Of a stretch of DNA of 64,000 bases, positions 22,327 through 42,836 are shown one piece after another. This DNA comes from Candidatus Parcubacteria bacterium. GTDB taxonomy: Bacteria > Patescibacteriota > Minisyncoccia > Phycocordibacterales > UBA918. Within the stretch, counting starts at the first letter, position 1. Each line of letters starts with the position of its first letter. The stretch lies in contig JAKFXN010000003.1 in assembly GCA_021731405.1 (NCBI GenBank), forward strand, positions 44,676 to 108,675, given 5' to 3'. A model generated the notes under the pieces. The model saw only the letters and a program-made list of their open reading frames with translations, was not told the DNA's origin and ran no database searches. The position numbers and the translations under genes were made by a program.

Positions 22327-22364
22327 AAAACAAAAACCCACTCATTTGAGTGGGTTTTTGTTTT
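22327..22364. terminator. bidirectional terminator after rpsJ
   Basis: aaaacaaaaacccactca-tttg-agtgggtttttgtttt perfect mirror hairpin. Confidence 0.85.
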
Positions 22365-22752
22365 AACCAGGAGAACGTCGCCTATTTTTTGCGATAAACT
22401 CGTATATTTTCTCGCCTAAAATGTTTATTCCGGGCAGGTAGAGAAGTAGTGCAAACGGGGCAGTAAGTGGTAGCTTTAATCCAATTTTTCTGACTGCCTT
22501 AAAACCCCTATAAACAGTACCGTTTCTATCAATAAGATGAATTTCAGAAAGCAGGGAGTTTAGGTTTGAGATTTCTGCTGGGATTTGAGAAAGGGATTTT
22601 TCGTCGTAAACGTTAACTGTTTTAATAACCCCAAACCAGTCTAGTGAAACAATAATATTTCTAGCTCGACCACAGGAGAGACATAGTCCATCATAAAGTA
22701 CGTATGAGTAGGGCATCAACCTCATCATAGCTCTCAAGTACACTGTAGGCAA
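22363..22752 (-). CDS. DCC1-like thiol-disulfide oxidoreductase (DUF393) family protein
   Basis: YVLYDGLCLSCGR = VLFDGxCxLC signature of DUF393/DCC. Confidence 0.65.
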   Translation of the reverse strand: MPTVYLRAMMRLMPYSYVLYDGLCLSCGRARNIIVSLDWFGVIKTVNVYDEKSLSQIPAEISNLNSLLSEIHLIDRNGTVYRGFKAVRKIGLKLPLTAPFALLLYLPGINILGEKIYEFIAKNRRRSPG

Positions 22753-22761
22753 TTCATAAAA

Positions 22762-23571
22762 TTGAGTATTTCTGTCCTGTACAATATACGTACTATGAGC
22801 GATGAGTCGATTGTCACCCCAACAAAAAAATCAAAATTTCTGAAACTGGCACTGCTTGTCATCAGTTTGTTCTGGGTGATTGTTATAGTAGCGTTCCTTT
22901 TTCCTCAGACTCAATATCGAGCCGGAAACATTTTTTTTGGAGAAGTGCCAGCTCTCTATAATCTGACAATCGCTCAGGTACTTTTTACCCATGCTTCTTA
23001 TCCAATTATAGGGGCAGCGCCACAGTTTGCCCACTATCAATTATCTCGTACCTACTTTATTAAAGGAGAATTGTACACTTCATTATTTGAGGCAAAAAAA
23101 GAATTAGAGCTGTACCCGCAAAATAAAAGGACCTATTACATTTTAGGTTTAACGTACGGGTACCTCGGTCAGGAAGAAGAAGCAATTGAGGCTTTTTCAA
23201 GTTTTATCGAGGCTTATCCAGAATCATGGGCGGCTCGCAACGACAAGGCTTGGTTACAGTTTAGGATTGGTGATATAGAAGGGGCGCTTCTGACCATGGC
23301 ACCGGTGACACACCTAGAAAATCCCTGGGTATTAAATACCTACGGAACGCTCCTTCTTAATTCAGATAGGTTACTTGAGGCGAAAGAGGTTTTTTTACAT
23401 GCTGAAGCCGTTGTCCAAAAAATTACCGCTGATGACTGGGGGAGCGCCTATCCTGGTAACGATCCACGGATCTATGAAACAGGTTTAACGGGAATGCGGA
23501 CTTCAATTGAAGAAAATCTACAGATTGTTGAAGACCGCTTATTATCCCCAAACAAGGAGAGCTCAGAGTAG
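22762..23571 (+). CDS. membrane-anchored TPR-repeat protein
   Basis: N-terminal TM helix, TPR-like LGLTYGYLGQEEEAIEAF repeats. Confidence 0.45.
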   Translation: MSISVLYNIRTMSDESIVTPTKKSKFLKLALLVISLFWVIVIVAFLFPQTQYRAGNIFFGEVPALYNLTIAQVLFTHASYPIIGAAPQFAHYQLSRTYFIKGELYTSLFEAKKELELYPQNKRTYYILGLTYGYLGQEEEAIEAFSSFIEAYPESWAARNDKAWLQFRIGDIEGALLTMAPVTHLENPWVLNTYGTLLLNSDRLLEAKEVFLHAEAVVQKITADDWGSAYPGNDPRIYETGLTGMRTSIEENLQIVEDRLLSPNKESSE

Positions 23572-30405: not shown

Positions 30406-32465
30406 AAAAAATATCATTTATCGTTTATTATCCCTACCAGTGGTTTATTTATAAAAATGTTTACAATAAACTCGATCCAACTAAAAGAGAAATTATTGTC
30501 GATCTAGGCTTCCAGCCGCTGCTACAGAATAAAGATCTCGAACAAAGTATCGTTGCTTTACTGACTGAGAACAATGTCACATTTCGAACTTTACAGCATA
30601 TTGATTTTGTACGAGAGAAATACTTAGAAGATTTTTTCTCAAATGTTGAGGTCATTGTGTCTTGTTGGGAAGCCTCCTCGGTGGCGATTCCACAAACGGA
30701 GCATATTAAGAAAGTGGGTATGACCTATGGCATTGCCAAGGAACTAACGTTACTTCGGCCAACTCGTTCAATATACGACGTCATACTTGCTTACGGCGAG
30801 CGCGACAAGAAGCTGTTTGAGTTGATGACAAAATCCATTGCTATCGGTAACCCAAGAGCGGATGCGTTTTACCTAGGTGAAAAGCATGTCACGCCTGATA
30901 TCGCAGCTATTAATACTTTTATTGCCGGAGGCAAACCCTCAGTGTTATATGTACCAACACACGGTGACCTGAGCTCTCTCTCGACTATGAGGGAGACAAT
31001 AGCTAGTCTTGCTCCAAGGTATAACATAATAGTTAAACCCCATTACTACACACTGCGTGAAGACGCGGCTCTTGTCGGGAAGTACAGAGACATACCTGAG
31101 GTACTTGTAGTTGACGATACCGTCGATACCTTTGACGCCATAGCAGCTGTTGATGTTGTACTAAGTGACAATTCTAGTGTCATATTTGACGCTATGCAGG
31201 CAGGTAAGGATATCATCGTGTCTGACTTTTTGTCGCCACACTTCTTAGATACACTTCATAAAAATTTACGCTTTTCAAAGCGAGGACTCATTGGTGCTTC
31301 AACCTATTCAAAAAGTATTGAACAAGAAATTAAGGACAATGATTTAGTGGCTGTTATCAAAAAGCCTGAAGAGTTGGAAACTTTACTGAAAGATATTGCT
31401 GCCATCAATGCAAAATATACAACTAAGCAAGCAGAAATTGTGCGCGAAAATTTTGCTTATACGGACGGACATTCATCTGATAGAGCGGTGAAAATAATTA
31501 ATGAGGTATATGTTGAACCTCGCAATTACACTCCAGGAATTCTCCACCATGCGTATCAGGCGTTTGGAAACAGACTATACCGTACGCTTGTAAACAAAAA
31601 AGAAGAGGACGAAAGATTGAATGCTTCGGGCAAAGATCTGATTGTCTGGATTATTGCCACAACTAAGACCGAAGAAAAAGAGTTGCAGGCAACAGTATAT
31701 TCCGCCTTAGGGAATCCTACCGTCAGTCAGGTATATGTCAGCGGTTTTCCGCGGAAAATTTTCGGAGATAGTGAAAAAGTGCATGAGATGACCCATGATG
31801 AGGTATTAAAGGCTCTCTATGAGACCCTCTCTCTAGAAGCTGATCTTTGTATTACGACACCAAATACCTTACTTAAAAATCTCAGTGCTGCGACAGTATT
31901 TAAGCAAGTAAATGCCAAAGAAGCTTTGTTTTTTGCAGAAAATGGTAGCGCAAAACCATCTCAAGTGTCACAGACACTTGATGTAAGCCTCTTGCTAAAA
32001 AATGAAATATTGAACTACGAAACTGTTTGGCGGGATATATTGCTTGATGTTTCCTATGCTCAAGTTAAATCTTTAGAGAAGTGTGCCGTACTTATTGGGG
32101 TTGAAACACTGCGAGCGCAGCCGCGTATTGATTTCAAGAACATTTCTTTTGAACAGATAAGCGCCTATTGTATAGAAATATATCGTTTGCAGGCTATGCC
32201 TTTTTACGTGATGCCAAACTTCTTTCAAGTACATACAAACCCTGATCCTGAGAGGATGTTTAGTAAATTATCAAACCGTGCGATTTATCTAGAAAAAGAT
32301 GGGCTTAGTGTGTGGCAATGGGCTGATTTCAAGCCAGGTAAGTATATATGGAAATGTGTACGAGGTGATTTAAGGTATGCAAAGCTCCTTCGTCTTTTGC
32401 TGATTAAAGTATTCATTTACACAAAAGTACATTTGCACACAAAAGGTTATATTAAAAGGCTGTAG
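30402..32465 (+). CDS. TagF/TarL-like CDP-alditol phosphotransferase domain protein with ~280-aa C-terminal extension
   Basis: KPSVLYVPTHGD...IIVKPHYYT...VVLSDNSSVIFDAMQAGKDII resemble Glyphos_transf catalytic core; 4-nt overlap with upstream gene. Confidence 0.55.
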   Translation: MKKISFIVYYPYQWFIYKNVYNKLDPTKREIIVDLGFQPLLQNKDLEQSIVALLTENNVTFRTLQHIDFVREKYLEDFFSNVEVIVSCWEASSVAIPQTEHIKKVGMTYGIAKELTLLRPTRSIYDVILAYGERDKKLFELMTKSIAIGNPRADAFYLGEKHVTPDIAAINTFIAGGKPSVLYVPTHGDLSSLSTMRETIASLAPRYNIIVKPHYYTLREDAALVGKYRDIPEVLVVDDTVDTFDAIAAVDVVLSDNSSVIFDAMQAGKDIIVSDFLSPHFLDTLHKNLRFSKRGLIGASTYSKSIEQEIKDNDLVAVIKKPEELETLLKDIAAINAKYTTKQAEIVRENFAYTDGHSSDRAVKIINEVYVEPRNYTPGILHHAYQAFGNRLYRTLVNKKEEDERLNASGKDLIVWIIATTKTEEKELQATVYSALGNPTVSQVYVSGFPRKIFGDSEKVHEMTHDEVLKALYETLSLEADLCITTPNTLLKNLSAATVFKQVNAKEALFFAENGSAKPSQVSQTLDVSLLLKNEILNYETVWRDILLDVSYAQVKSLEKCAVLIGVETLRAQPRIDFKNISFEQISAYCIEIYRLQAMPFYVMPNFFQVHTNPDPERMFSKLSNRAIYLEKDGLSVWQWADFKPGKYIWKCVRGDLRYAKLLRLLLIKVFIYTKVHLHTKGYIKRL

Positions 32466-32489
32466 TTACCTTTTGGTATACTTATCTCT

Positions 32490-33359
32490 ATGTTAGAAAG
32501 TTGGTACGCAGCTCTCCTGAAATTTAAAACATATACATTACTTTGTTTTGATCTTATTAATGATCTCCGTCTGCATGTAATCTTTAACTATTTTCTCGTC
32601 GTTTCGTGGTTTTTGTATGCGTCTGGACTTTCGGCCTCTCGCTCGGTTAGTTACGCCGCGCTTATGGCTTGTTTGGCAGGGTTTAGCTATTTACTCAATC
32701 GCTATACAGACTATAGCTACGATGTGATTGTTGATAGAGGACTAGCAAAAGTATCTCCAAAAGTATATTTAGTATTGTCAGCTTGTTTTTTTGTTTGCGG
32801 ACTCGTTTTGGTCTATGTGTATCCTCAGTATCTTTTCCCAATTATATTGGGAACCTGTCTGGGGATTTTTTATAGTGTGAAGACGATTTTTAAATACCCG
32901 CTTAAGAATTATTTTGTAACAAAAAATTTATTTGCCGCTTTTTCAAAATACTTGGGCACTATGATTGGAGTGCTGCTGGTCATTCCGTTTTCCGAAGGCC
33001 TGCTTATTCGCAGTATTTCGATGTTTGCTTTTCATCTTATCTATGAAATTTTGTGGGACATACGTGACATTGAGTCTGATAGGGCTGGAAATGTTTCAAC
33101 TATTCCAAACAGATATGGCAAGACATTAGCTCTCGTTGTCTGTGTCTTAATATGGCTTATAAGCTTTCAGGCTCAATATTTTGTGGTAAACCATTCGGAA
33201 TACTTCTTTATAAAATATGCTGTTGTGTTATCGATTATATTTTCACTCATTTTTATTACAACGGTGCGCTGGTACCACGTGGCGATTTATATCCACATTG
33301 TTCTTTCACTCATTTTTATCAATAAAGAAGTTATTTTGTTTATACGAAGTCTCTTGTAA
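32490..33359 (+). CDS. UbiA-superfamily prenyl/phosphoribosyl transferase (membrane)
   Basis: LNRYTDYSYDVIVDRG = NxxxDxxxD Asp-rich motif in polytopic membrane protein. Confidence 0.6.
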   Translation: MLESWYAALLKFKTYTLLCFDLINDLRLHVIFNYFLVVSWFLYASGLSASRSVSYAALMACLAGFSYLLNRYTDYSYDVIVDRGLAKVSPKVYLVLSACFFVCGLVLVYVYPQYLFPIILGTCLGIFYSVKTIFKYPLKNYFVTKNLFAAFSKYLGTMIGVLLVIPFSEGLLIRSISMFAFHLIYEILWDIRDIESDRAGNVSTIPNRYGKTLALVVCVLIWLISFQAQYFVVNHSEYFFIKYAVVLSIIFSLIFITTVRWYHVAIYIHIVLSLIFINKEVILFIRSLL

Positions 33360-33362
33360 TCT

Positions 33363-33390
33363 TTGACATTTACAGATAGTAAGGTAGAAT
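33363..33390 (+). promoter_or_regulatory. sigma70-like promoter for GC-rich ORF
   Basis: TTGACA-16nt-TAGAAT. Confidence 0.45.
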
Positions 33391-33466
33391 ATAACCATCT
33401 TTTATAACACTTGGGGTAAGGTACCTTAGGTGGGGAATCATAAAAGAGTTCTTTTAGGAGATTTTC

Positions 33467-33949
33467 ATGAAGCGTCAATCTGCATGCAAAGGACTCTTTG
33501 CATCTCTCGCCATCTCGTTCCTGTGCCTCATCGGCACGTCCGCTTTCGCGCAGGAATCTGGTGTCAAGGCCGTTTCGACCAACAGCGATCCCATGGCACA
33601 AGTGGTGCTGACGGAAGCCGAGGTCCGCGCCCTCGTCACCGACAAGTCGGTCACTTGGGAAGCTGGCCAGTGGGGCCTCTGCCGGAATGACTTCAAGGCT
33701 GACGGTACGTTCACTTTCGAGTGCAACGGCAGCAACAACAAGTACTACGACACCGGCAAGTGGTACTTCAAGGACCACGAGTCCGAGCCTCGTCGCATGA
33801 TCTGTCGTGACTACGACAAGCAGAAAAAGGGGAGTTGTATGTCCATGGCCAGAAGTGAGGCTGGGGAGACCTTCTACTTCTTTGGGTTGTCCAAGAAAAA
33901 ACAAAATAAGGTCACTCGCGTCACCGAACTCGTGCAGGTTCCCATGTGA
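33467..33949 (+). CDS. GC-rich orphan ORF encoding secreted Cys-containing protein (160 aa)
   Basis: GC ~58%; signal peptide MKRQSACKGLFASLAISFLCLIGTSAFA|QE; AGGAG 6 nt before ATG; perfect terminator 33967-33995. Confidence 0.55.
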   Translation: MKRQSACKGLFASLAISFLCLIGTSAFAQESGVKAVSTNSDPMAQVVLTEAEVRALVTDKSVTWEAGQWGLCRNDFKADGTFTFECNGSNNKYYDTGKWYFKDHESEPRRMICRDYDKQKKGSCMSMARSEAGETFYFFGLSKKKQNKVTRVTELVQVPM

Positions 33950-33966
33950 ACAGGCTCGAGCCGAGC

Positions 33967-33995
33967 AAACCGCCAACCCAGTTGGCGGTTTTTTC
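33967..33995 (+). terminator. terminator
   Basis: aaaccgccaac-cca-gttggcggttttttc. Confidence 0.85.
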
Positions 33996-34033
33996 TTGTC
34001 CAAATTTGATGGTACACTGCGTCTAAGACAATT

Positions 34034-35272
34034 ATGAACTGGCTAGAAAAAATATTTCACCATTCAGAACTTTTTACCCAAAGAAGTATCCAAGCGCTAT
34101 ACGTCATCTTGTTTTTTGATCTTGTCTTTACGTTCAACAGCTGGACTTCACAAGGATACCTAACAGTACAAAGTGTAAAAGAAAATGACGCAATCTGCTG
34201 GCCATATTTTCAGAATTGTTTGGATCTGTATGTTTTTCAAGCCATACCGCAAGGCTATAGTTTGGGTATTCTGTACATGGTAATAGGAGGTTTCCTGTTT
34301 ACCTCGCTATATTTTTCCTACAGAGAAAAGTGGGACAAGGCACTGCTTTTTTTAGCAATACCAGCTCTGTTTAAGTTTTTGATGTTGTACGTGTTCTCCT
34401 ATCTGCCAATTGGTAATTACCATGTACTCGGATTGGTATTTGTACTCCTCCTCCTATTTGCTAAGCACAAATTATTCGCACTAAAGGTTGCAGTAACCGT
34501 TTTTTATTTTTGTGCTGCCGCCCTCAAAATTAACGCTGGCTATATTTCAGGCTCAATCTTTTCTTCCTTAGCGCTCGGCGTGCCAATTTTCCCGAATAGT
34601 TTGTTACCGTATTACGGCCTCGTCTTCATACTTATAGTTGTAGCGGTACCCTTTTTCCTCTGGTCGGCTGAATTACGAGTACGTATTATGGCTGTGAGTA
34701 TTTTGGCAGCGTTTCATGTGTATAGTATTACCCTCGTAGGGTTTCGTTTTGCGGCTCTTTGTATACCAATATTGTTTATACTTTTTATACTATCTGATTA
34801 TGAAAAATTCTCTTTCAAGAAAATACGGACAGATGTTTTTTCCTTCATTCTGATTAGTCTGATTATTTTAGGGCAAAGTCTACCTATTATAATTGCCGGT
34901 GATGAAAGAATCACCAGTGAAGGTGAAAAATACGGTTTTTATATGTATACCGCTAATCGACAGTGTATCAGAACGATAAATGTACATTACAAAGATGGCA
35001 CGAGCGCTGAAAATACCTACGAAGACAGAAAGGGGATGAGACGCTGTGACCCCTATGAAGATTGGTTCAGGATTCAGCAAGCGTGTAAGCAAGATACCGT
35101 TTCTCGAATAGAGTGGATTTTTAACGTAAGTATCAATGGGTCCTACTTCTATACTCTGGTTGATGTTCCAAATGCTTGTGTCATAACTGAATATAAGGCT
35201 TTTTCACACAATGACTGGCTAAAAACCGACATTCAAGATACGAGTCTTCCAGTATTAAAAAATAGTATTTAA
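34034..35272 (+). CDS. polytopic membrane protein (~8 TM) with C-terminal extracytoplasmic Cys-containing domain; possible membrane glycosyltransferase
   Basis: Hydropathy only; context next to UbiA/TagF genes. Confidence 0.4.
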   Translation: MNWLEKIFHHSELFTQRSIQALYVILFFDLVFTFNSWTSQGYLTVQSVKENDAICWPYFQNCLDLYVFQAIPQGYSLGILYMVIGGFLFTSLYFSYREKWDKALLFLAIPALFKFLMLYVFSYLPIGNYHVLGLVFVLLLLFAKHKLFALKVAVTVFYFCAAALKINAGYISGSIFSSLALGVPIFPNSLLPYYGLVFILIVVAVPFFLWSAELRVRIMAVSILAAFHVYSITLVGFRFAALCIPILFILFILSDYEKFSFKKIRTDVFSFILISLIILGQSLPIIIAGDERITSEGEKYGFYMYTANRQCIRTINVHYKDGTSAENTYEDRKGMRRCDPYEDWFRIQQACKQDTVSRIEWIFNVSINGSYFYTLVDVPNACVITEYKAFSHNDWLKTDIQDTSLPVLKNSI

Positions 35273-35328
35273 CTACATAAGTGCATAATTTTGCTATCCG
35301 CTAAAATCATTGTGATACCATTAAGGTA

Positions 35329-35598
35329 ATGATAAATAGTATTCCAAAGAAAATAGGGTATCTATTGCTAGCTTTAGCAGTAACTGCTTTAGGGTTTATT
35401 TTATCTCTAATTCCGGCGGGGCAAAAAGCGACCGCTGACGTAGCTATGACAAATGCCGACTATTGTGGCGTTGGTGGTCCTGGATACATGTCAGAATATT
35501 GTTATTCAATTGGATTTTATTATTACACTGACAGCGGTGGCGACGCTGCTGCTGCTTGCGGCGACGCCGCTGGAGCTGACTGTTGCTCTGCTAGTTGA
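35329..35598 (+). CDS. small secreted Cys/Gly/Tyr-rich peptide precursor (89 aa, 6 Cys in C-terminal 45 aa)
   Basis: N-terminal hydrophobic leader then DYCGVGGPGYMSEYCYSIGFYYYTDSGGDAAAACGDAAGADCCSAS. Confidence 0.5.
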   Translation: MINSIPKKIGYLLLALAVTALGFILSLIPAGQKATADVAMTNADYCGVGGPGYMSEYCYSIGFYYYTDSGGDAAAACGDAAGADCCSAS

Positions 35599-35617
35599 TT
35601 GTTCTAAAACTTAATAT

Positions 35618-36667
35618 ATGAAAAGCCCTGTTTTTATTGCCATTGTCCTCGTTCTAATAGCAGTTGTTGTCTTTGCGGCGAGATTGTTTCTTCTTGATCG
35701 AGAAATCACAATGCAAGCTGTGCCTCCTGCTCAAACCGAAGAAGGGAACAACGATGGTTTTGTAGATATTACTAAACAGGCAGTTGAGACAAACTCTGAT
35801 TTACAGGAAGGTATTCGACTTATAGAAAATGGTAGATTTGCCGACGCTCGAGTTTATTTACAAAAAGCGGTAGAAACAGAAACTGACCCAAATACCAAAT
35901 CAGTGGCTGACCTGACATTCGCAAGTACTTACTTTAGGGATAATCAGCCTGAGTTAGCCGCTGAAAACTTATTGCGTGTTGCCAACGAGCCATCGTATCC
36001 TAGCTCTACTCGTGCTTTTGCACTGACGACAATTGTGCAGCAGTATAATGCCACAAAAGACATCTCACTTCTCAAAGTCTTTGGAGACACTGAAGAATTT
36101 AACACCAGCTATTTACTACAGGGAGCACACAGACAAATCGTTACCCTCTTTCCAATGGGTCTGTCAGTCGCATACCTAGCAAGAATCGATATGGATAGAT
36201 TTGCGGATAAAGCTGAAATCACGTATCAAGAGGCAATTGAGAAGATTGACGCAGACATCATTTTTCAAAACAAGGGCCTAGAAAGTAATTATCTTGTACC
36301 GAATATAATGATTGCAAAAGCAAATCTGATGGCTAAAGCAGAAGGCCTTGGGTTTGAAGATCGGCGTGAAGTAATTAAAGCTTATAAAGACGCAATTACT
36401 ACCGCTAAAGAAAAGCTTCAGGCAACTACTGCTCAGTTTGCCATGCTCCAGTACATGAACTACTTGGGTAAAAATGTTGAAGAAAATACGGTACTTATCG
36501 ATGAAGCCCTCGCAATCTTTGAAGCAGAGAAACTAACTGAAATGGTCGTCAATCACTTGGGACGAGAAGAGGTTGTCTACGAGTGGCCAGGGATTATTGC
36601 TATTGCACGAGTAAATGAAGCATACGTTACATTCTTCTCCCAATATGTTCCAGTTCCCCAACAGTAA
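35618..36667 (+). CDS. membrane-anchored helical-repeat (TPR-like) protein
   Basis: N-terminal TM helix, alpha-helical repeats; no catalytic motif. Confidence 0.4.
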   Translation: MKSPVFIAIVLVLIAVVVFAARLFLLDREITMQAVPPAQTEEGNNDGFVDITKQAVETNSDLQEGIRLIENGRFADARVYLQKAVETETDPNTKSVADLTFASTYFRDNQPELAAENLLRVANEPSYPSSTRAFALTTIVQQYNATKDISLLKVFGDTEEFNTSYLLQGAHRQIVTLFPMGLSVAYLARIDMDRFADKAEITYQEAIEKIDADIIFQNKGLESNYLVPNIMIAKANLMAKAEGLGFEDRREVIKAYKDAITTAKEKLQATTAQFAMLQYMNYLGKNVEENTVLIDEALAIFEAEKLTEMVVNHLGREEVVYEWPGIIAIARVNEAYVTFFSQYVPVPQQ

Positions 36668-37184
36668 AGTGTACGCGCTTATTGCCCTAACTCTCGTTTT
36701 AGGGATATTAGTAGCGCTCAGTTTTCGTATTGTTCGCTATACAGACCTCTTGCCCCCACAGATAGTCGACATAAGCCCCGTTGAGGCGTATGAAAACATT
36801 CTTGGTAATCCCGAAAAATACATTCTCATAGATGTTCGCTCTGGTTCTGAGTACCAAAACGCCCACGCTACAGGTTCGGTAAACTTACCGATACATTATC
36901 TCTATGATGATATGCACGGTTTGCCTAATGAACTACGTGTTCCTGTACCAAAAAATACCGATCAGGAGATATACCTTTTATGTACTGGAGGTAGATTGGC
37001 GGGTGTAGCCTATGGATATCTTGAACACCATGGCTATCGAAACATTAAACGAATCGAAGGAGGTATTGCAAACTGGGCAAAAAGTGGGCTCCCGATTATA
37101 ACCAAGTCCCTCTTTTCTGGGACAGAAGTAGATTTTAATACTGCGACAGAGGGTGAGCTCGATAGACCGTATGTTCAAGAATAA
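36645..37184 (+). CDS. membrane-anchored rhodanese-domain sulfurtransferase
   Basis: ILIDVRSGSEYQNAH...LLCTGGRLAG (active-site Cys loop). Confidence 0.75.
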   Translation: MFQFPNSKVYALIALTLVLGILVALSFRIVRYTDLLPPQIVDISPVEAYENILGNPEKYILIDVRSGSEYQNAHATGSVNLPIHYLYDDMHGLPNELRVPVPKNTDQEIYLLCTGGRLAGVAYGYLEHHGYRNIKRIEGGIANWAKSGLPIITKSLFSGTEVDFNTATEGELDRPYVQE

Positions 37185-37884
37185 GGGCTTAATTCTTTTT
37201 CTCCTCGTCGTATTTTTTATAGGATCGGGTTTATTTCTTTATACAAATGAGGAAAGAGTACCAGAACAAGAAATAAACCTAAGTGAGACACTGACTATCC
37301 GTGAGAACGAACATTATCTTAGCTTTGCAGAGGATTCAGAATACACTGTTGTTGAATACCTAGACTTTGACTGCGTTTTTTGCAGGCGGTTACATCTGGA
37401 ATTAGACAAAGGAGGAGTCGATTATTCTAAAATTACCTATATCATCAGAAGTTTTCCAAGCACAGGCGTAGTCTTGTATTCAAAAAAAGCCTTAATTGCT
37501 GAATGTATATATGACCAAAGTGGAGACGCAGGGTACTTAGCCTTTATTGATTTGTACTTTAAGACCTGGGGTAATAAAAATGACCTTACTTGGGCAACTA
37601 AGATTGCGGAAAATCTTGTGACTGACAAGGACGCTTTATACAATTGTTTAGAAAACAACCAAGCAATAAAAGATACTATCAGTAGTAATTTTACGCTTGA
37701 TAGTATTGCTGGCGTTACGCAGACTCCTTCGTTTTATGTTTATAAAAACAATGTACTTGAACAAAAGTTTGTTGGACTTGGAGCAAAGACATACCGAAAC
37801 TTAATGAGGTATTACTCTCGAAATAGTAGGGGGTATTTAAATACCTGGACGACGCTCCCGCTTTTTGAAAATGTACGCCGATAA
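37171..37884 (+). CDS. DsbA-like thioredoxin-fold thiol:disulfide oxidoreductase (membrane anchored)
   Basis: N-terminal TM helix; LDFDCVFCRRLH CxxC active site. Confidence 0.7.
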   Translation: MFKNKGLILFLLVVFFIGSGLFLYTNEERVPEQEINLSETLTIRENEHYLSFAEDSEYTVVEYLDFDCVFCRRLHLELDKGGVDYSKITYIIRSFPSTGVVLYSKKALIAECIYDQSGDAGYLAFIDLYFKTWGNKNDLTWATKIAENLVTDKDALYNCLENNQAIKDTISSNFTLDSIAGVTQTPSFYVYKNNVLEQKFVGLGAKTYRNLMRYYSRNSRGYLNTWTTLPLFENVRR

Positions 37885-38157
37885 TTTTTTCTGCTCTCCA
37901 AGCGCATGAAATATATGGGGCGCAATATCTGGGTTGCAGTGCACTGCCACTTTTTGAACGCCTTGCCCTGATATCAAAAGTTCCATCCCAGCGTTAGTAA
38001 AAACAGCAGTGACCCTTCTCTTGCCGCTCTTGCTTTTTCCTTGCGTAATAATACCTGGTGAAACAAGAGTTACTCCAGGTATTTTTTCAAGGAGAACAAC
38101 TACTTCCTCGGCGGTCTCGGTCAGAGTTGAGTGGGTACCACCACGAATGTTCTTCAT
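37837..38157 (-). CDS. hypothetical protein (106 aa)
   Basis: ORF only. Confidence 0.35.
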   Translation of the reverse strand: MKNIRGGTHSTLTETAEEVVVLLEKIPGVTLVSPGIITQGKSKSGKRRVTAVFTNAGMELLISGQGVQKVAVHCNPDIAPHIFHALGEQKKLSAYIFKKRERRPGI

Positions 38158-38249
38158 TACTTAAGTGTAGCAAAAATGGACTGTCTTTGCTTATGTATTC
38201 CAGTTTAGCCCCTTAACCTTTTTCTTAACAAATGACATACTAGAGGGTA

Positions 38250-38846
38250 ATGGAAGACGATGTGCTATATGTAAATAGATGTAAAGCTGGTGACACAGAA
38301 GCTTTTGGCGTATTGTACGATCGGTACATAGATAAAATCTATCGATTTGTTTTTTATAAAACGTTTGTTAAAGAAGTGGCGGAAGATATCACAAGTGATG
38401 TATTTCATAAGGCACTGCAAAAGATTAATTCTTACGAAGCTGACAGGGGCGTATTTAGCGCTTGGATATATCGTATCGCCCGCAATAATGTGATTGATTA
38501 TTACCGCAGTCAGAAAGGAGACGTACCGCTTGAGGATGTATTTGACGTTGGGTTTGATGAACGTACTCCCGAATCGCTCGACGCCATTGCGGCCCTTGAT
38601 AAAGTGAATGTGTATCTTGAGACTTTGAGTAGTAAGCAGCGGGAGATCATCACCCTTCGGGTTTGGGAAGAGCTGCCTTACCTCGAAATTGCCGAGATTG
38701 TGGGCGGTACGGAAGATAGTGTAAAGATGGCTTTTTCTCGCAGTATCCGTGAATTGCGTGAAAAGTGTGGACCCATTTCACCCCTACTTCTCTTTGTGGC
38801 GGTTGGGTTTTCAGAGCAGGCGTTACTTTTTCATGATTTTACGTAA
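38250..38846 (+). CDS. ECF (extracytoplasmic function) RNA polymerase sigma factor
   Basis: sigma-70 region 2 (YDRYIDKIYRFVFYK...DITSDVF) and region 4 (LSSKQREIITLRVWEELPYLEIAEIVG). Confidence 0.85.
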   Translation: MEDDVLYVNRCKAGDTEAFGVLYDRYIDKIYRFVFYKTFVKEVAEDITSDVFHKALQKINSYEADRGVFSAWIYRIARNNVIDYYRSQKGDVPLEDVFDVGFDERTPESLDAIAALDKVNVYLETLSSKQREIITLRVWEELPYLEIAEIVGGTEDSVKMAFSRSIRELREKCGPISPLLLFVAVGFSEQALLFHDFT

Positions 38847-38856
38847 TACATAGTAT

Positions 38857-39648
38857 ATGAAGGATTCGCTTGAATTAATTATTAAAGACATCTATACCCT
38901 TGATCCGTCGCTCGTAGAGCAAGACGGTGAGGTACGGGCTTTGGTGAGTGCTCTTTCGGAGCAGAAACCAGTAGTCGTGATAGATGCTGCTTTTGTGCAA
39001 TCTTTGCGCGCTGACTTAGTGAAACCTGCTCGGGTGATGCCTGTTGTTGCCCCAACACCGTCAGCTTGGTGGATGGTATATGGAGCACCAGTTGGGGTTC
39101 TGGCACTCTTGCTGATTATGCTTATACCGAAGACGGAGCCTATGCGCAATGAAGTTCCAACCATTGCCCCTTCGCCAGTAAGAGAAGCAGATATGTATCT
39201 TGAGTCTTCGGATGGGGCGCAAGAGACTAAGCGTTCAGCTCCCGCCAGTGGCGCTGCCGAGTCAATGATGATGGAAGCAGATACTATGATGATGTCAGCT
39301 CCGGTGTCTGGAGACACCTTCCAAATCAGTACCCAAGCGCCTGGAGACACGGTCGTAGTAGACTTTGCCTCCCTTGAACAAGCGGGGTACTTAGTTATTC
39401 AAGCTTATACAGAAGAAGGTCCAGGAGAAATCCTTGGTACTAGTCCGCTCTTGGCTGCCGGTATGATAGAGCAGGTTCAAATTGTCTTGAATTTAACCAC
39501 AGAGCCTGACCAAACCTTCTTTGCGGTCCTATATCGAGACGATGGCGATGGGTTGTTCTCACTTGAAGCAGACATGATGGTCTATGACCAAAGTGGTACG
39601 GTACCGTTCTCACAAATGTTCTCAACTACACCGGCTCCACTCCCATAA
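38857..39648 (+). CDS. putative anti-sigma factor (single-pass membrane protein)
   Basis: Immediately downstream of ECF sigma, cytoplasmic N-term + one TM (WWMVYGAPVGVLALLLIMLI) + extracytoplasmic domain. Confidence 0.55.
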   Translation: MKDSLELIIKDIYTLDPSLVEQDGEVRALVSALSEQKPVVVIDAAFVQSLRADLVKPARVMPVVAPTPSAWWMVYGAPVGVLALLLIMLIPKTEPMRNEVPTIAPSPVREADMYLESSDGAQETKRSAPASGAAESMMMEADTMMMSAPVSGDTFQISTQAPGDTVVVDFASLEQAGYLVIQAYTEEGPGEILGTSPLLAAGMIEQVQIVLNLTTEPDQTFFAVLYRDDGDGLFSLEADMMVYDQSGTVPFSQMFSTTPAPLP

Positions 39649-39691
39649 TAGTGTTACCCTTAAGCTACAACTGCGTAGTACAAAAGAGGAA

Positions 39692-39729
39692 AGAAATTGC
39701 TTATGTCCTTGGGACATAAGCAATTTTCT
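39692..39729 (+). terminator. terminator
   Basis: aaattgcttatgtcc-ttgg-ggacataagcaatttt. Confidence 0.8.
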
Positions 39730-39771
39730 AAATGAGCATATTTTCTTAATAAAAATAATAGTAATAATCAT

Positions 39772-40785
39772 ATGGAATTTATCAAAAAGATTGATTGGAG
39801 TAAGCCAGGAATACAGCTCGCGTTTGTGGGTCTGTTTGGCGTATTCGCTTTTATAGTATTGTCGGGTACCAGTATTCAAAACCCAATGCCTTCATTCTCT
39901 AAGGACAGTGAAGAAGCGATGTATTATGGCGATGGCTATGCGGTTTCGTCAGATATGGGCATGGGATATGGACAAGAACTTTCTCTTCGTAATGTAGAAG
40001 GAAGCATCATGCCACCAATGCCAGATTTTGCCCCAGGCAATGACGCTGAAGCGTATGAGGTAAAGCAGTACTCAGCTACTATCGAAACTAGAAACCTAGA
40101 AGAGGATTGTTCTACTGTACGTTCACTCATGGAGCGCGAAGATGTTATCTTTCAAAATAAAAATGAATACGAACAAGGATGTTCATATAGTTTTAAGGTA
40201 GAGAAGGAGAGCGTTGAGGAAGTGCTAGCTATCTTAGAAGCGCTTGATCCAAAAGATCTTAGTGAAAACTCCTACACCATTAAGCGTGAAGTGGCTGATT
40301 ACACGGGAGAGATTGAAATTCTCGAGAAGAAGCTCGCTACGCTAGACCAGACTCTGACCCAATCGCTCGCCAGTTATGACACCCTAAGTGCACAAGCAAC
40401 TGCTCGAGGCGACGTAGCAACGCTCGCTCAGATTACTGAAAGTAAGATAACCCTTATTGAGCGCCTAACTATCACTCGTATTGATACTGTCGGACAACTC
40501 GATAGACTAGCTCGAGCGAAAGCTGAAGCGCTTGACCAGCTCGTGTACACAAACTTCTACGTAAATATTTACGAAAACACCTTCGTAAACGGTGAAGAGA
40601 TTAAGACTTCGTGGATAGAAGCGGTTAAAGAATTGGTGCGAGAGATCAACACCTTCGCACAAGAGGTAAGTCTTGGGTTTGTAGCACTCTTGTTTATGGT
40701 AGTGAAATATTCACTTTACGGTATCGTACTACTCTTTGTAGCTCGCTTTGCCTACTCATTCGCTCGAAAAGTCTGGACTTCATAG
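39772..40785 (+). CDS. DUF4349-like protein (N-terminal TM, coiled coil, C-terminal TM)
   Basis: Architecture and position next to ECF/anti-sigma pair. Confidence 0.45.
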   Translation: MEFIKKIDWSKPGIQLAFVGLFGVFAFIVLSGTSIQNPMPSFSKDSEEAMYYGDGYAVSSDMGMGYGQELSLRNVEGSIMPPMPDFAPGNDAEAYEVKQYSATIETRNLEEDCSTVRSLMEREDVIFQNKNEYEQGCSYSFKVEKESVEEVLAILEALDPKDLSENSYTIKREVADYTGEIEILEKKLATLDQTLTQSLASYDTLSAQATARGDVATLAQITESKITLIERLTITRIDTVGQLDRLARAKAEALDQLVYTNFYVNIYENTFVNGEEIKTSWIEAVKELVREINTFAQEVSLGFVALLFMVVKYSLYGIVLLFVARFAYSFARKVWTS

Positions 40786-40846
40786 TCAAATAGACCCAAT
40801 CGGTAAGATATTGCAGGATGCTCCGTCAACGTAAATAACAAACACT

Positions 40847-41059
40847 ATGTACGAAAAAGCTAAAACATTTACACTTTCAAAACCACTTCTCAAAAAGATA
40901 GTTGGTGGAGTGTTGGTGCTGATTGGCTTTGTGGCTCTTATCACGCCATTGACACCAGGAGCTATACTCTTCCTCTTCGTGGGCTTTGAGTTTCTTGGCC
41001 TCAGGTTTATGTTCCTCGACCGCCTTATTGGACGAAAACCAGCCTCTGCCTTAGAATAA
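40847..41059 (+). CDS. small membrane protein (70 aa, two TM)
   Basis: ORF + terminator 41088-41120. Confidence 0.45.
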   Translation: MYEKAKTFTLSKPLLKKIVGGVLVLIGFVALITPLTPGAILFLFVGFEFLGLRFMFLDRLIGRKPASALE

Positions 41060-41121
41060 TTGCAAAGGAGAACCCTAGGTAAAACGTAAAAGCCGCAAAT
41101 CCTATGGATTTGCGGCTTTTA

Positions 41122-41219
41122 CTATGCAAAATAAGACTCGATTGAGCATAATTATTGACTTTACTCATAAATTATGCTATTATACTAGCAGTACAGTCTC
41201 ATCCCGAGACTAAAGGAGT
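41122..41219 (+). repeat. copy A of 97-nt promoter-operator-RBS module
   Basis: 94/97 identical to 41508-41605; contains TTGACT-17-TATTAT, inverted repeat gcataattat/ataaattatgc around -35, hairpin agtctc-atccc-gagact, AAAGGAG SD. Confidence 0.9.
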
Positions 41220-41224
41220 TCGTC

Positions 41225-41440
41225 ATGTTGCACCCCGAAGCAAAAAACTTGCCCGCTACCAAGGAAGAAACACTCACAATGATCGAAATTGTGAAGTCGA
41301 CACTCGTTTTCGACAAGGAGGCTCTTGCAGATGCCGTCGATGAAGGTGACTACTACAAAATTCTGGAAGAGCAGCGCGAAGTCGCTGATTCCGAAAAGGA
41401 CCTCGCCGCGCTCGAAGCACATCTCTTGACCTTCCAGTGA
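41225..41440 (+). CDS. cassette A cargo: acidic 71-aa helical protein
   Basis: ATG 6 nt after SD of the repeat module; terminator 41447-41490. Confidence 0.55.
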   Translation: MLHPEAKNLPATKEETLTMIEIVKSTLVFDKEALADAVDEGDYYKILEEQREVADSEKDLAALEAHLLTFQ

Positions 41441-41507
41441 AAGATTTACCGCCTTTAAGACAAAACCTGTCTTCGGGCGGTTTTGTTTTGTCTAAAAGCA
41501 GCTCCTG

Positions 41508-41605
41508 CTATGCAAAATAAGACTCGATTGAGCATAATTATTGACTTTACCCATAAATTATGCTATTATATTAGCAGTACAGTCTCATTCCGAGACTAAA
41601 GGAGT
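41508..41605 (+). repeat. copy B of 97-nt promoter-operator-RBS module
   Basis: see copy A. Confidence 0.9.
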
Positions 41606-41609
41606 TCCC

Positions 41610-41900
41610 ATGAAATTTGTCCTGAACCTTGTTGCTGCCACCCTTGCTGCAATTGGCGCCATCACGCTGATTAATCTCGGTGTTGAAGGCTTCTCGAGAG
41701 AGAAAGCTATCGTCAAAACTGAAAAGTTCGAACCGTCCCGATATGTTCACAGAAATGGGCTTGATAAAGCACAGCTTCTCTGTGAAAAATATGGTGGCAT
41801 TCTCTCCATTGGAGGCATGTATATCCAAGATGGCGTGAGGTATGAGCTCATGTGTATGTATGGGAAGGAGATGACGTTTGAAATCTTGCTTTCAAAATGA
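41610..41900 (+). CDS. cassette B cargo: 96-aa secreted/anchored Cys-containing protein
   Basis: ATG 41610 right after module SD (ORF track offers upstream in-frame start 41541 inside the module); signal-like MKFVLNLVAATLAAIGAITL; terminator 41902-41940. Confidence 0.55.
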   Translation: MKFVLNLVAATLAAIGAITLINLGVEGFSREKAIVKTEKFEPSRYVHRNGLDKAQLLCEKYGGILSIGGMYIQDGVRYELMCMYGKEMTFEILLSK

Positions 41901-42831: not shown

Positions 42832-42836
42832 TACCT

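What the first reader, a model, noticed from the sequence alone, without database searches (positions are those of the whole stretch)
35329..37884. Cys-rich secreted peptide co-located with TPR membrane protein, rhodanese and DsbA-like oxidoreductase
The 89-aa ORF has an N-terminal hydrophobic leader and a C-terminal ~50-aa Gly/Ala/Asp/Tyr-rich core with six cysteines (DYCGVGG...EYCYSIGFYYY...AACGDAAGADCCSAS). It is followed, with overlapping or short intergenic junctions, by a TPR-like membrane protein, a membrane-anchored rhodanese and a membrane-anchored CxxC thioredoxin-fold protein. This is the expected gene set for export and oxidative folding or sulfur modification of a disulfide-rich peptide, i.e. 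a bacteriocin- or RiPP-like product. An ECF sigma/anti-sigma pair sits immediately downstream. No known bacteriocin family is recognisable from the core sequence.
Basis: partly seen in the sequence, partly recalled or inferred. Interest (0 to 1): 0.7.

Follow-up and report, generated by a model that had tools for sequence, protein, structure and literature searches.

The report
Conserved exported cysteine-peptide maturation operon
The small cysteine-containing peptide gene is real and belongs to a previously undescribed gene cassette, widespread in the tiny Patescibacteria (CPR) bacteria, that pairs an exported acidic peptide with a membrane-anchored TPR protein, a rhodanese and a DsbA-like oxidase, here also with a membrane enzyme shaped like the human vitamin K-dependent carboxylase.

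Summary

The peptide is a real gene. It is kept with all five Cys in six related contigs, and dN/dS against the closest relative is 0.24.

The peptide, TPR protein, rhodanese and DsbA-like genes form a conserved cassette across Patescibacteria:
- Among loci picked by the rhodanese alone, 27 of 27 contigs of at least 6 kb carry the TPR gene and 17 carry the DsbA-like gene.
- A small ORF sits just upstream of the TPR gene. It has a signal or anchor helix, an AxA|D[VA]P site, and an acidic Gly/Asp/Ser core, most often with two C-terminal Cys.
- In about 45% of these loci a TOMM-type YcaO (usually with a SagB dehydrogenase) lies nearby, often directly beside the peptide. None is found in this 64-kb window.

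My best reading is a YcaO-less, RiPP-like operon that matures a surface or secreted peptide outside the membrane. The steps would be Sec export, TPR docking, disulfide formation, and sulfur transfer or a redox relay. The peptide's function is unknown, and nothing supports calling it a bacteriocin. No family model or paper describes the cassette.

The parts
34034..35272 (+). 412-aa membrane protein with about nine helices and a C-terminal extracytoplasmic beta domain. It has the vitamin K-dependent gamma-carboxylase (HTTM superfamily) fold. Invariant residues are the CWPYFQxC motif (C55, C62), K146, K165, H228 and four C-terminal Cys.
35329..35598 (+). 89-aa precursor peptide. Residues 1-36 (35329-35436) form a Sec-type signal sequence ending in ATA. 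The predicted mature 53-aa acidic core (35437-35595) carries five conserved Cys: YCG[VI]GGxGYMxxYC...C-x7-CC.
   Evidence: ORF and Cys count. Homologues in L003, L089, L090, L004 and L091 keep all five Cys, and L006 keeps the C-x7-CC. Synonymous changes and an in-frame 21-nt indel separate it from L001. dN/dS is 0.24. No Pfam, NCBIfam or PDB match.
35618..36667 (+). 349-aa membrane-anchored, Cys-free TPR-solenoid protein (called 'f4' here). It is the obligatory partner gene of the peptide.
36645..37184 (+). Membrane-anchored single-domain rhodanese with an invariant active-site Cys (LLCTGGRLAG). An alternative upstream ATG lies at 36615.
   Evidence: Pfam PF00581, E 5e-14. Family alignment with the invariant Cys and the DVR motif. 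PDB relatives are rhodaneses and thiosulfate sulfurtransferases, including PspE, GlpE and YgaP.
37171..37884 (+). Membrane-anchored DsbA-like thioredoxin-fold protein (Thioredoxin_4) with a CVFC active site plus a second Cys pair. An alternative GTG start lies at 37153.
   Evidence: Pfam PF13462, E 6e-14. The CxxC is conserved across the family as CP[HYF]C, CNYC or CVFC. The closest solved relatives are DsbA-like proteins and ScsC.
38250..39648 (+). ECF sigma factor (38250-38846) and a DUF7282 membrane protein (38857-39648). They are lineage-specific neighbours and possible regulators, not part of the conserved cassette.
   Evidence: Pfam and NCBIfam hits. They are present beside the cassette only in L003 and L088, and absent in L004, L091, L090 and L006.
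22363..23571 (.). DCC1-like thiol-disulfide oxidoreductase (22363-22752, - strand) and a 269-aa TPR protein (22762-23571, + strand). In other genomes both families sit inside or next to the cassette; here they lie 12 kb away.
   Evidence: Pfam PF04134 at 2.8e-18 and TPR families. The f2TPR HMM matches at 6.7e-68. Co-occurrence in other loci.
32490..33359 (+). UbiA-family prenyltransferase two genes upstream of the carboxylase-like gene. Any link to the cassette is uncertain.
   Evidence: Pfam PF01040, E 1.7e-15. It is also near the cassette in L003, L001 and L006 but not elsewhere. It follows genes resembling those of teichoic acid synthesis.

Best explanation
Genes 34034-37884 form one operon. 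It is a YcaO-less variant of a cassette conserved across Patescibacteria that makes a small exported peptide and processes it outside the cytoplasmic membrane.

Proposed steps:
1. The 89-aa precursor is inserted or exported by Sec through its N-terminal helix. This is inferred from the sequence.
2. It is cut after ATA, leaving a 53-aa, net -7 peptide that starts with DV. This is inferred; AxA|D[VA]P is the one motif conserved across the whole family.
3. The membrane-anchored TPR protein holds the peptide or its leader at the membrane surface. This is inferred from obligatory gene pairing and the peptide-binding fold class.
4. The DsbA-like CxxC protein oxidises the Cys pairs. This is inferred from family and co-location.
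5. The rhodanese, whose catalytic Cys is invariant, either puts sulfane sulfur on a Cys (a persulfide or trisulfide; the odd fifth Cys is a candidate) or acts as a redox partner of the DsbA-like protein. This step is inferred and is the least certain.
6. The carboxylase-fold membrane protein upstream acts on the same exported peptide, or supplies quinone-linked redox power. This is inferred from strict adjacency in this lineage and from its fold.

In many relatives the same kind of peptide is first modified in the cytoplasm by a TOMM-type YcaO and a SagB dehydrogenase, so the family as a whole is RiPP-like. The end product is a short, very acidic, Cys-bearing peptide at or released from the cell surface. 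Its biological role (metal or cation binding, signalling, or antagonism) is not established.
For: The gene is real and under constraint:
- Six related contigs keep the peptide with all five Cys in the same position.
- dN/dS is 0.24, against 0.02-0.09 for the neighbouring genes.
- Differences from the closest relative include many synonymous changes and an in-frame indel.

Operon structure:
- The genes are separated by short gaps or overlaps, and there is no convincing internal terminator.

The module is conserved:
- In loci chosen by the upstream 412-aa gene, presence of the TPR gene predicts the rhodanese (12 of 13 rhodanese loci) and the DsbA-like gene (12 of 13), each at p=1e-5.
- In an independent set chosen by the rhodanese alone, 27 of 27 non-redundant loci of at least 6 kb have the TPR gene, 17 the DsbA-like gene and 15 a second TPR protein.
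- Gene orders recur as peptide-TPR-DsbA-rhodanese-TPR2 or rhodanese-peptide-TPR.

The peptide family:
- There are 71 non-redundant peptides with the same architecture.
- The cores are 33% Gly, 17% Asp, 15% Ser and 8% Cys.
- 67 of 71 have at least one Cys. The most common count is two, and where there are exactly two Cys the last one usually lies 0-4 residues from the C-terminus.

Protein identities:
- TPR fold.
- DsbA-like CxxC conserved across the family.
- Rhodanese catalytic Cys invariant.
- Carboxylase fold for the upstream protein.

The RiPP link:
- YcaO (best match TOMM_cyclo_SagD) and a SagB-family dehydrogenase (128 bits against a cutoff of 78) lie directly beside or around the peptide in L006, L092, L126, L116, L120, L130, L134, L027 and others.
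- Peptides within 3 kb of a YcaO or SagB gene carry more Cys (median 4 against 2, p=0.02).
Against: - No biochemical step has been shown.
- The window (64 kb) and its close relatives (about 10 kb on each side) have no YcaO or SagB gene, so the RiPP label rests on distant relatives.
- Sequence similarity between the window peptide and the distant peptides is marginal. A leader HMM ranks it first of 534 window ORFs, but only at E=0.045. The family link therefore rests on position and architecture.
- The TPR ectodomain is itself acidic (pI 4.6), so simple charge-based binding of the acidic core is not supported.
- In many family members the AxA site lies 15-45 residues beyond the helix. That is atypical for signal peptidase I, so cleavage may need another enzyme or may not happen at all.
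- The carboxylase-fold gene is within 8 kb in only 2 of 27 rhodanese-selected loci, so it is not a universal component.
- The counts are not corrected for phylogenetic relatedness or contig length.
Confidence: 0.55

Rival explanations
1. This is a bacterial vitamin K-carboxylase-like modification system. The 412-aa GGCX-fold enzyme carboxylates, or otherwise modifies, Asp/Glu residues of the exported acidic peptide. The N-terminal segment would act like a propeptide tether. The DsbA-like protein, rhodanese and DCC1-like protein would recycle the cofactor or the enzyme's Cys pairs, and the product would be a strongly cation-binding peptide.
For: - The full-length fold match is to GGCX only.
- GGCX substrates are secreted proteins with a propeptide plus a Glu-rich region, as the titles of the matched entries show.
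- The family's cores are acidic, at 17% Asp and 3% Glu with a median net charge of -7.
- The two genes are strictly adjacent in the window lineage.
- A bacterial HTTM enzyme, MloH, carboxylates an aspartyl residue, and HTTM-DCC1 fusions exist (paper 10.64898/2026.08.19.745780).
- A UbiA prenyltransferase lies nearby in the window, L003 and L006.
Against: - There is no sequence-level HTTM match, so conservation of the catalytic residues could not be checked.
- The enzyme is absent from most rhodanese-selected cassettes (2 of 27).
- In most of its own loci it is paired with a different 60-79-aa partner and a PRTase/beta-propeller protein rather than with this peptide.
- Patescibacteria are generally thought to lack quinones and an oxygen-dependent lifestyle (my own knowledge).
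- The UbiA gene follows teichoic-acid-like genes and may belong with them.
Confidence: 0.12
2. This is a general envelope thiol-redox (oxidative folding) system. The DsbA-like protein and the rhodanese serve many exported proteins, and the small Cys-pair peptide is a redox mediator or cofactor (a stand-in for DsbB/quinone) rather than an end product.
For: - The cassette is spread across a phylum and often sits by ribosomal operons, which suggests a housekeeping role.
- The modal peptide has just one Cys pair.
- DsbB is found near the cassette in only 2 loci and not in the window.
- Neighbouring proteins, including the 412-aa protein (six invariant Cys) and Cys-rich membrane proteins, would need disulfide formation.
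- The E. coli rhodanese PspE can drive disulfide formation when DsbA is missing (my own knowledge: Chng et al. 2012).
Against: - 19 of 71 peptide cores have no Cys or only one, so they cannot cycle as an intramolecular disulfide.
- The peptide is always paired with a Cys-free TPR protein.
- It is frequently embedded in YcaO/SagB operons, which is typical of a substrate rather than a cofactor.
- L006 and L034 carry the cassette together with DsbB.
Confidence: 0.15
3. This is a classical antimicrobial bacteriocin locus. The peptide would be a secreted disulfide-stabilised toxin aimed at competitors or hosts.
For: - It is a signal-peptide-bearing small peptide with conserved Cys.
- Relatives lie next to TOMM enzymes, and some TOMM/LAP products, such as microcin B17, are Gly-rich antibiotics (my own knowledge).
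- The peptide evolves faster than its neighbours.
Against: - No immunity gene, ABC exporter or C39 peptidase is found within about 10 kb.
- The cores are highly acidic, low-complexity and largely non-amphipathic.
- The cassette is conserved across many Patescibacteria classes rather than being sporadic.
- No known bacteriocin family matches.
Confidence: 0.1
4. The peptide is a sulfur-carrier arm. It would stay membrane-anchored and use its flexible Gly-rich C-terminal Cys as a swinging arm, in the manner of SoxY's GGCGG tail, loaded with sulfane sulfur by the rhodanese.
For: - The rhodanese is the most tightly linked enzyme (27 of 27 loci with the TPR/peptide pair).
- Where a core has exactly two Cys, the last one usually lies 0-4 residues from the C-terminus, in a Gly-rich context.
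- The rhodanese catalytic Cys is invariant.
Against: - No sulfur-oxidation or sulfur-reduction genes are nearby.
- Four family members lack Cys entirely.
- The link to YcaO/SagB is not explained.
Confidence: 0.05
5. The 89-aa ORF is a chance open frame and only the larger genes are real.
For: The ORF is short, its C-terminus is low-complexity, and it matches no database family.
Against: - It is conserved in position, frame and all five Cys down to about 45% identity of the neighbouring genes.
- dN/dS is 0.24 and the indel against the closest relative is in frame.
- Analogous ORFs lie upstream of dozens of TPR-family (f4) genes in other genomes: 50 of the 71 family peptides are within 400 nt of one.
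Confidence: 0.02

Closest known systems
TOMM / linear azol(in)e peptide (LAP) RiPP clusters (YcaO cyclodehydratase + SagB dehydrogenase + Cys/Ser/Gly-rich precursor, e.g. microcin B17, streptolysin S)
   Same: - The precursor is small and ribosomally made, with an N-terminal non-core part and a Gly/Ser/Cys-rich core.
- In many relatives the equivalent peptide gene lies directly beside YcaO (best match SagD family) and a SagB-family dehydrogenase.
- Peptides in YcaO-linked loci carry more Cys.
   Different: - The window has no YcaO or SagB gene within 64 kb.
- The 'leader' is a hydrophobic Sec-type signal or anchor rather than a soluble leader.
- The invariable partners are extracytoplasmic proteins (TPR, rhodanese, DsbA-like) that are not part of known LAP clusters.
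- The cores are strongly acidic.
Bacillus subtilis SdpABC (cannibalism toxin SDP maturation)
   Same: - A signal-peptide-bearing precursor is exported and then processed outside the membrane, with the help of a multi-pass membrane protein (SdpB) that, to my knowledge, belongs to the HTTM superfamily.
- The mature product is a small peptide, which to my knowledge contains Cys (PMC6818787).
   Different: - There is no SdpA homologue and no SdpI/SdpR immunity pair.
- SDP is hydrophobic and membrane-active, whereas this core is acidic and Gly-rich.
- The 412-aa protein matches no SdpB or HTTM sequence model.
- SdpABC has no rhodanese, DsbA or TPR genes.
[quoted passage not shown]
   Same: - The upstream 412-aa protein has the whole GGCX architecture, with a TM bundle plus an extracytoplasmic beta domain.
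- GGCX acts on secretory-pathway substrates that have a tethering propeptide and an acid-rich region.
- HTTM proteins occur in RiPP clusters (PMC9927463).
- One bacterial HTTM enzyme carboxylates Asp.
   Different: - Sequence identity is only 12-14%, and no Pfam HTTM hit is found.
- Catalytic residues are unverified.
- No VKOR is present.
- The enzyme is not universally linked to the peptide cassette.
DsbA/DsbB oxidative folding and rhodanese PspE
   Same: - The protein is a membrane-anchored DsbA-like CxxC protein, with 4 Cys as in alpha-proteobacterial DsbAs.
- It sits beside an extracytoplasmic single-Cys rhodanese related to PspE, GlpE and YgaP.
   Different: - No DsbB or VKOR is found in the window.
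- The two genes are fixed in an operon with one particular small peptide and a TPR protein, which is not known for the housekeeping Dsb systems.

Membership tests
TOMM / LAP RiPP biosynthetic cluster | A YcaO-family cyclodehydratase in the cluster | tested here: not met
   An HMM built from 29 YcaO proteins of related loci finds none among all ORFs of at least 35 aa in the 64-kb window. L003 and L004 have none within about 10 kb. It is met in distant relatives.
TOMM / LAP RiPP biosynthetic cluster | A SagB-type FMN dehydrogenase | tested here: not met
   No hit in the window. Relatives have a TIGR03605 SagB-family protein at 128 bits against a cutoff of 78.
TOMM / LAP RiPP biosynthetic cluster | A precursor whose core is rich in Cys/Ser/Thr next to Gly | tested here: met
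   The window core has 5 Cys, 5 Ser, 2 Thr and 8 Gly in 53 aa. The family's cores are 33% Gly, 15% Ser and 8% Cys.
Class II / double-glycine-leader bacteriocins | A GG-type leader plus an ABC exporter with a C39 peptidase, and an immunity gene | tested here: not met
   The leader is a hydrophobic Sec-type signal ending in ATA. No ABC, C39 or immunity genes lie in the flanks. The only ABC protein in the window lies 23 kb away, is an ATPase duplication without TM domains, and is unrelated.
SdpABC-type toxin maturation | An SdpB-family (HTTM) membrane protein, SdpA, and a signal-peptide-bearing precursor | tested here: inconclusive
   An HTTM/GGCX fold is present, as is a signal-bearing precursor. 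No NCBIfam or Pfam SdpB/HTTM hit is found, and no SdpA-like gene.
HTTM / vitamin K-dependent carboxylase superfamily (412-aa protein) | The GGCX-like TM bundle plus lumenal domain | tested here: met
HTTM / vitamin K-dependent carboxylase superfamily (412-aa protein) | Sequence membership (Pfam PF05090) and a conserved catalytic Lys and quinone pocket | tested here: not met
   No Pfam or NCBIfam hit. hhalign against a true PF05090 protein from L008 gives probability 0.2. No PDB sequence hit. Invariant K146, K165 and H228 exist, but their equivalence to GGCX K218 could not be tested.
DsbA-like oxidoreductase (Thioredoxin_4) | A thioredoxin fold with a CxxC active site, located outside the cytoplasm | tested here: met
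   PF13462 at 6e-14. The CxxC is conserved in all family members. The protein has an N-terminal TM anchor. The nearest solved relatives are DsbA-like. The presence of a DsbB partner was not established.
Rhodanese sulfurtransferase | A rhodanese domain with a catalytic Cys in the active-site loop | tested here: met
   PF00581 at 5e-14. The Cys in L[IL]C[ST]GGR is invariant across 12 sequences. PDB relatives are sulfurtransferases. Activity cannot be tested with these tools.
TPR repeat proteins (349-aa protein) | A tandem helix-turn-helix TPR solenoid | tested here: met

The most novel reading that the evidence does not exclude
Patescibacteria may use a vitamin K-carboxylase-fold membrane enzyme together with an extracytoplasmic rhodanese and DsbA-like pair to modify the acidic residues and C-terminal cysteines of a Sec-exported mini-peptide. 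That would be a bacterial 'Gla-like' or persulfide-bearing surface peptide, and a new class of RiPP matured outside the membrane. It might serve cation or metal capture, or host attachment, in these epibiotic bacteria.
Probability: 0.12. Interest if true: 0.9.

Novelty: new variant of a known kind. Interest (0 to 1): 0.66.

Why it matters
Patescibacteria (CPR) make up a large share of bacterial diversity. They have tiny genomes, live on other cells, and most of their conserved genes of unknown function concern the cell surface.

This work defines a recurrent cassette that no Pfam or NCBIfam model, source annotation or paper in the searched library describes. It consists of a signal-bearing acidic Gly/Asp/Ser peptide with C-terminal Cys, a dedicated TPR anchor protein, a rhodanese and a DsbA-like protein. 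It is often joined to YcaO/SagB enzymes and sometimes to a vitamin K-carboxylase-fold enzyme.

If the peptide is matured outside the membrane, that would extend RiPP biology to a Sec-exported, periplasm-style maturation route. It would also give a testable function to bacterial GGCX-like proteins and to exported rhodaneses.

The operon has only five genes and could be tested directly by heterologous expression and mass spectrometry.

Tried and rejected
- Known-family search for the peptide. Pfam, NCBIfam and PDB sequence searches all returned nothing. The 5.8-billion-protein search found only the peptide itself and one 69%-identical relative.
- Sequence-level HTTM test of the 412-aa protein. 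Pfam, NCBIfam, a PDB profile search and hhalign against a true HTTM protein were all negative. Only the fold comparison was informative.
- AFDB50 fold search. The library was unavailable.
- Leader HMM from distant peptides. The hit to the window peptide is only marginal (E 0.045), so I do not claim sequence homology between the window peptide and the wider family.
- Charge complementarity between the TPR protein and the peptide. Rejected, because both are acidic.
- DsbB as the missing oxidase. It was found near the cassette only in L006 and L034 and not in the window, so this was uninformative.
- ECF sigma/anti-sigma as part of the system. Rejected as a conserved component.
- Rfam scan of the window. 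No RNA families were found.
- Literature searches. The term combinations HTTM+YcaO; Patescibacteria+YcaO; CPR+rhodanese+DsbA; SagB/YcaO/signal peptide/rhodanese; and Saccharibacteria+cyclodehydratase found no description of this cassette.
- Source names for the proteins. None are given.
- The small 60-79-aa partner ORF that normally follows the 412-aa gene family. It is absent in the window lineage and unrelated to the Cys peptide.

Full report
**What is in the sequence.**

- The 89-aa ORF (35329-35598) reads MINSIPKKIGYLLLALAVTALGFILSLIPAGQKATA|DVAMTNADYCGVGGPGYMSEYCYSIGFYYYTDSGGDAAAACGDAAGADCCSAS. It has a basic N-terminus, a roughly 21-residue hydrophobic helix, a canonical AxA site and a 53-residue acidic tail with pI 4.05 and net charge -7. 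It has five cysteines, not six.
- The next two genes are a membrane-anchored rhodanese (PF00581, 5e-14) and a membrane-anchored Thioredoxin_4 / DsbA-like protein with a CVFC motif (PF13462, 6e-14).
- The gene junctions are a 19-nt gap followed by two overlaps. No convincing terminator lies inside 34034-37884.
- Rfam finds nothing in the window.

A 412-aa protein with about nine TM helices is encoded at 34034-35272, 56 nt upstream of the peptide. It has no Pfam, NCBIfam or PDB sequence match.

- An alignment of ten homologues shows an invariant extracytoplasmic CWPYFQxC motif, invariant K146, K165 and H228, and four invariant Cys in a C-terminal beta domain.
- In Foldseek the top 15 hits are all GGCX structures, at E 2.5e-8 to 1e-6 and TMq 0.55-0.62. 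Nothing else is significant.
- It is therefore a highly divergent HTTM/GGCX-fold protein. Membership of the sequence family was tested and not met, and the catalytic residues could not be checked.

**The peptide is a real, conserved gene.** The big protein database holds only the peptide itself and one 69%-identical relative. Looking up the contexts of homologues of the neighbouring genes recovered the peptide in five further lineages. All of those down to about 45% identity of the neighbouring genes keep the same five Cys and the motif [DT]YCGI[GA]GxGYM[ST]xYC[TY]GxG[FY]...C-x7/8-CC. L006 (26% identity of the TPR gene, 51% of the 412-aa gene) keeps only ACEGAAPEGCC.

Against the closest relative the DNA differs by many synonymous changes (TGT/TGC, TAT/TAC) and by an in-frame 21-nt indel. 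dN/dS is 0.24, compared with 0.02-0.09 for the neighbours. This indicates purifying selection on the peptide, though more relaxed than on the enzymes.

**The cassette is conserved far beyond this lineage.** A scan of species-representative genomes with the 412-aa family gave 79 loci. Nearly all are Patescibacteria, with some Bdellovibrio-, Micavibrio- and Rickettsiales-like MAGs, at 39% identity or less.

I clustered all ORFs of these loci and searched them with HMMs. The TPR family ('f4'; an HMM built from the distant members matches the window protein at 7.9e-15) co-occurs as follows:

| Partner | Co-occurrence with f4 | p |
|---|---|---|
| Rhodanese | 12 of 13 rhodanese loci | 1e-5 |
| DsbA-like gene | 12 of 13 | 1e-5 |
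| PRTase/beta-propeller protein | 28 of 31 f4 loci | 8e-7 |
| Second TPR protein | 24 of 31 | 1e-7 |
| YcaO | 16 of 31 | 0.003 |

As an independent test I scanned metagenome contigs with the rhodanese family alone. Among 27 non-redundant loci of at least 6 kb:

| Gene family | Loci (of 27) |
|---|---|
| TPR (f4) | 27 |
| DsbA-like | 17 |
| Second TPR protein | 15 |
| PRTase/beta-propeller | 13 |
| YcaO | 12 |
| SagB-like | 9 |
| 412-aa carboxylase-like | 2 |

The recurrent gene orders are peptide-TPR-DsbA-rhodanese-TPR2 and rhodanese-peptide-TPR. The counts are not corrected for relatedness or contig length.

**A peptide family defined by position and architecture.** Directly upstream of f4 genes (a gap of -3 to about 70 nt) lies a small ORF with three parts: a basic N-terminus plus a TM helix, an A-x-A-[DE]-[VA]-P motif (AHADVP, AHADAP and ASADVP are the commonest), and an acidic low-complexity core.

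- A simple test for a TM helix plus the motif is passed by 28 of 110 ORFs upstream of f4, against 21 of 15,011 other small ORFs. Most of those 21 are visibly the same kind of peptide.
- Seventy-one non-redundant members have cores with a median length of 36 aa and a median net charge of -7. The composition is 33% Gly, 17% Asp, 15% Ser, 9% Ala and 8% Cys.
- Cys counts are 0 (4 peptides), 1 (15), 2 (23) and 3 or more (29). In the two-Cys cores the last Cys is usually 0-4 residues from the C-terminus, as in DCDDGDCN, DDCDSDSDCE and SDCEGGGDEGC.
- The window's ACGDAAGADCCSAS fits this pattern. Its N-terminal YCG...YC module is specific to its own lineage.
- A leader HMM built only from distant members ranks the window peptide first among 534 window ORFs, but at E=0.045. 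The family link therefore rests on synteny and architecture, not on sequence statistics.

**Link to RiPP enzymes.** The YcaO proteins in these loci match the TOMM SagD-type model best, although below its cutoff. The 240-aa gene that usually follows them is a SagB-family dehydrogenase (TIGR03605, 128 bits against a cutoff of 78).

The YcaO gene is frequently the immediate neighbour of the peptide. It is either divergent from it (L126, L116, L120, L134, L027, L043, L055) or in the same operon (L006, L130, L092). Peptides within 3 kb of a YcaO or SagB gene carry more Cys (median 4 against 2, p=0.02).

The window has no YcaO, SagB-like or PRTase/beta-propeller gene in 64 kb. L003 and L004 have none within about 10 kb. 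The window locus is therefore a YcaO-less variant. Whether a YcaO is encoded elsewhere in the genome is unknown.

**Most likely mechanism.**

- Shown: the gene set, its conservation, the folds, the invariant catalytic Cys and CxxC, and the signal-like N-terminus.
- Inferred:
  1. Sec export and cleavage at ATA|D.
  2. Docking on the TPR anchor.
  3. Disulfide formation by the DsbA-like protein.
  4. A rhodanese step, either sulfane-sulfur loading of a Cys or a redox relay.
  5. In this lineage, action of the carboxylase-fold enzyme on the same exported substrate, or in quinone-linked redox.
- Points against the simple picture:
  - The TPR ectodomain is itself acidic (pI 4.6).
  - In many relatives the AxA site lies far from the helix.
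  - The carboxylase-like gene is not universal.

**Rival readings.** The main rivals are:

- a true GGCX-like carboxylation of the acidic core, with MloH as a bacterial precedent and HTTM proteins known in linaridin clusters;
- a general oxidative-folding system with the peptide as a redox mediator;
- a classical bacteriocin;
- a SoxY-like sulfur-carrier arm.

The bacteriocin label lacks any positive evidence. There is no immunity gene or exporter, the core is acidic, and the cassette is distributed across a whole phylum.

**Comparison with known systems.**

- The locus works most like a RiPP pathway, and its relatives contain TOMM enzymes. The window locus fails the defining TOMM features (no YcaO, no SagB), so it should not be filed as a LAP cluster.
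- It resembles SdpABC in having a signal-bearing precursor matured outside the cell with an HTTM-type membrane protein (PMC6818787). It lacks SdpA and SdpI/R, and the product is chemically different.
- The DsbA-like protein and the rhodanese pass the membership tests for their families.
- No Pfam or NCBIfam model, source name or paper in the searched library describes the peptide, the f4 protein or the cassette.
- A narrow f4 profile finds only 77 representative clusters among 1.84 billion proteins.

**Verdict.** The finding is real and more interesting than an isolated oddity. It is a member of a conserved, undescribed Patescibacteria cassette for an exported acidic Cys peptide, here coupled to a vitamin K-carboxylase-fold enzyme. 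The details (six Cys, disulfide-rich, bacteriocin, sigma factor linkage) are not supported.

Noticed in passing
window 33467-33949 (+), with promoter-like site at 33363-33390 and terminator-like hairpin at 33967-33991: The 160-aa secreted-looking protein (weak DUF995 hit) sits in a 56% GC block inside a roughly 38% GC region. It has its own near-consensus promoter (11 of 12 matches) and a strong 11-bp-stem terminator. Its dS against the L003 orthologue is 0.36, compared with 1.4-2.0 for most of the adjacent genes. It looks like a self-contained, horizontally acquired gene cassette, and it is conserved in L001 and L003.
   Followed up: partly
window about 25342-43553; L003 1466-19173: The ribosomal protein cluster is split. 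L3-L4-L23-L2 (25342-27906) is separated from S19-L22-S3 (S3 at 42837-43553) by a roughly 14-kb insertion. The insertion carries teichoic-acid-like genes (SDR, IspD-like, Glyphos_transf), UbiA, the cassette studied here and the ECF sigma pair. Ribosomal L3/L4/L23/L2 genes are also found near the 412-aa gene family in 13 other loci.
   Followed up: partly
L010-L087 (for example L045 4595-6253, L069 8151-9812): A roughly 550-aa cytoplasmic fusion of an orotate-PRTase-like domain with a PQQ/BamB-like beta-propeller accompanies the carboxylase-fold gene in 47 of 82 loci, usually directly adjacent. Its function is unknown and it is absent from the window.
   Followed up: partly
L007 2905-3111, L008 10340-10528 and about 40 other loci: In most genomes the carboxylase-fold gene is followed by a conserved 60-79-aa ORF with a soluble N-terminus ('GLEGN...TL..LQ') and a C-terminal TM helix. 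It is sometimes fused to a second copy of the enzyme (L077, 608 aa). The window lineage lacks it and has the Cys peptide in that position instead.
   Followed up: partly
window 37837-38157 (-): A 106-aa DUF2103 ('predicted metal-binding protein') gene on the opposite strand overlaps the 3' end of the DsbA-like gene by about 48 nt. It is conserved in L003 and L088.
   Followed up: no
window 15209-17272 (-): A 687-aa fusion of a pyridine-nucleotide-disulfide oxidoreductase (glutathione/mercuric reductase-like) with a C-terminal VTT/DedA membrane domain. This is an unusual architecture and another thiol-redox protein in the same window.
   Followed up: no
L048 16429-16905 (-), L156 6668-7003, L159 3151-3489, L147 1148-1513: Extreme members of the peptide family have 9-22 Cys in Gly/Cys/Ser repeats (for example GCGCCGCDGGGGGCCGCGGG). 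They resemble heterocycloanthracin-type TOMM precursors or metallothioneins. The L048 peptide lies next to a 1074-aa YcaO fusion.
   Followed up: no
L004 8639-9829, L091 4660-5850, L069 4951-6165: A roughly 400-aa protein combines an N-terminal multi-TM region with a C-terminal DCC1-like thiol-disulfide oxidoreductase domain. In L004 and L091 it sits directly upstream of the carboxylase-fold gene, and in L069 two genes from the peptide. It recalls the HTTM-DCC1 fusions described in bioRxiv 10.64898/2026.08.19.745780.
   Followed up: no
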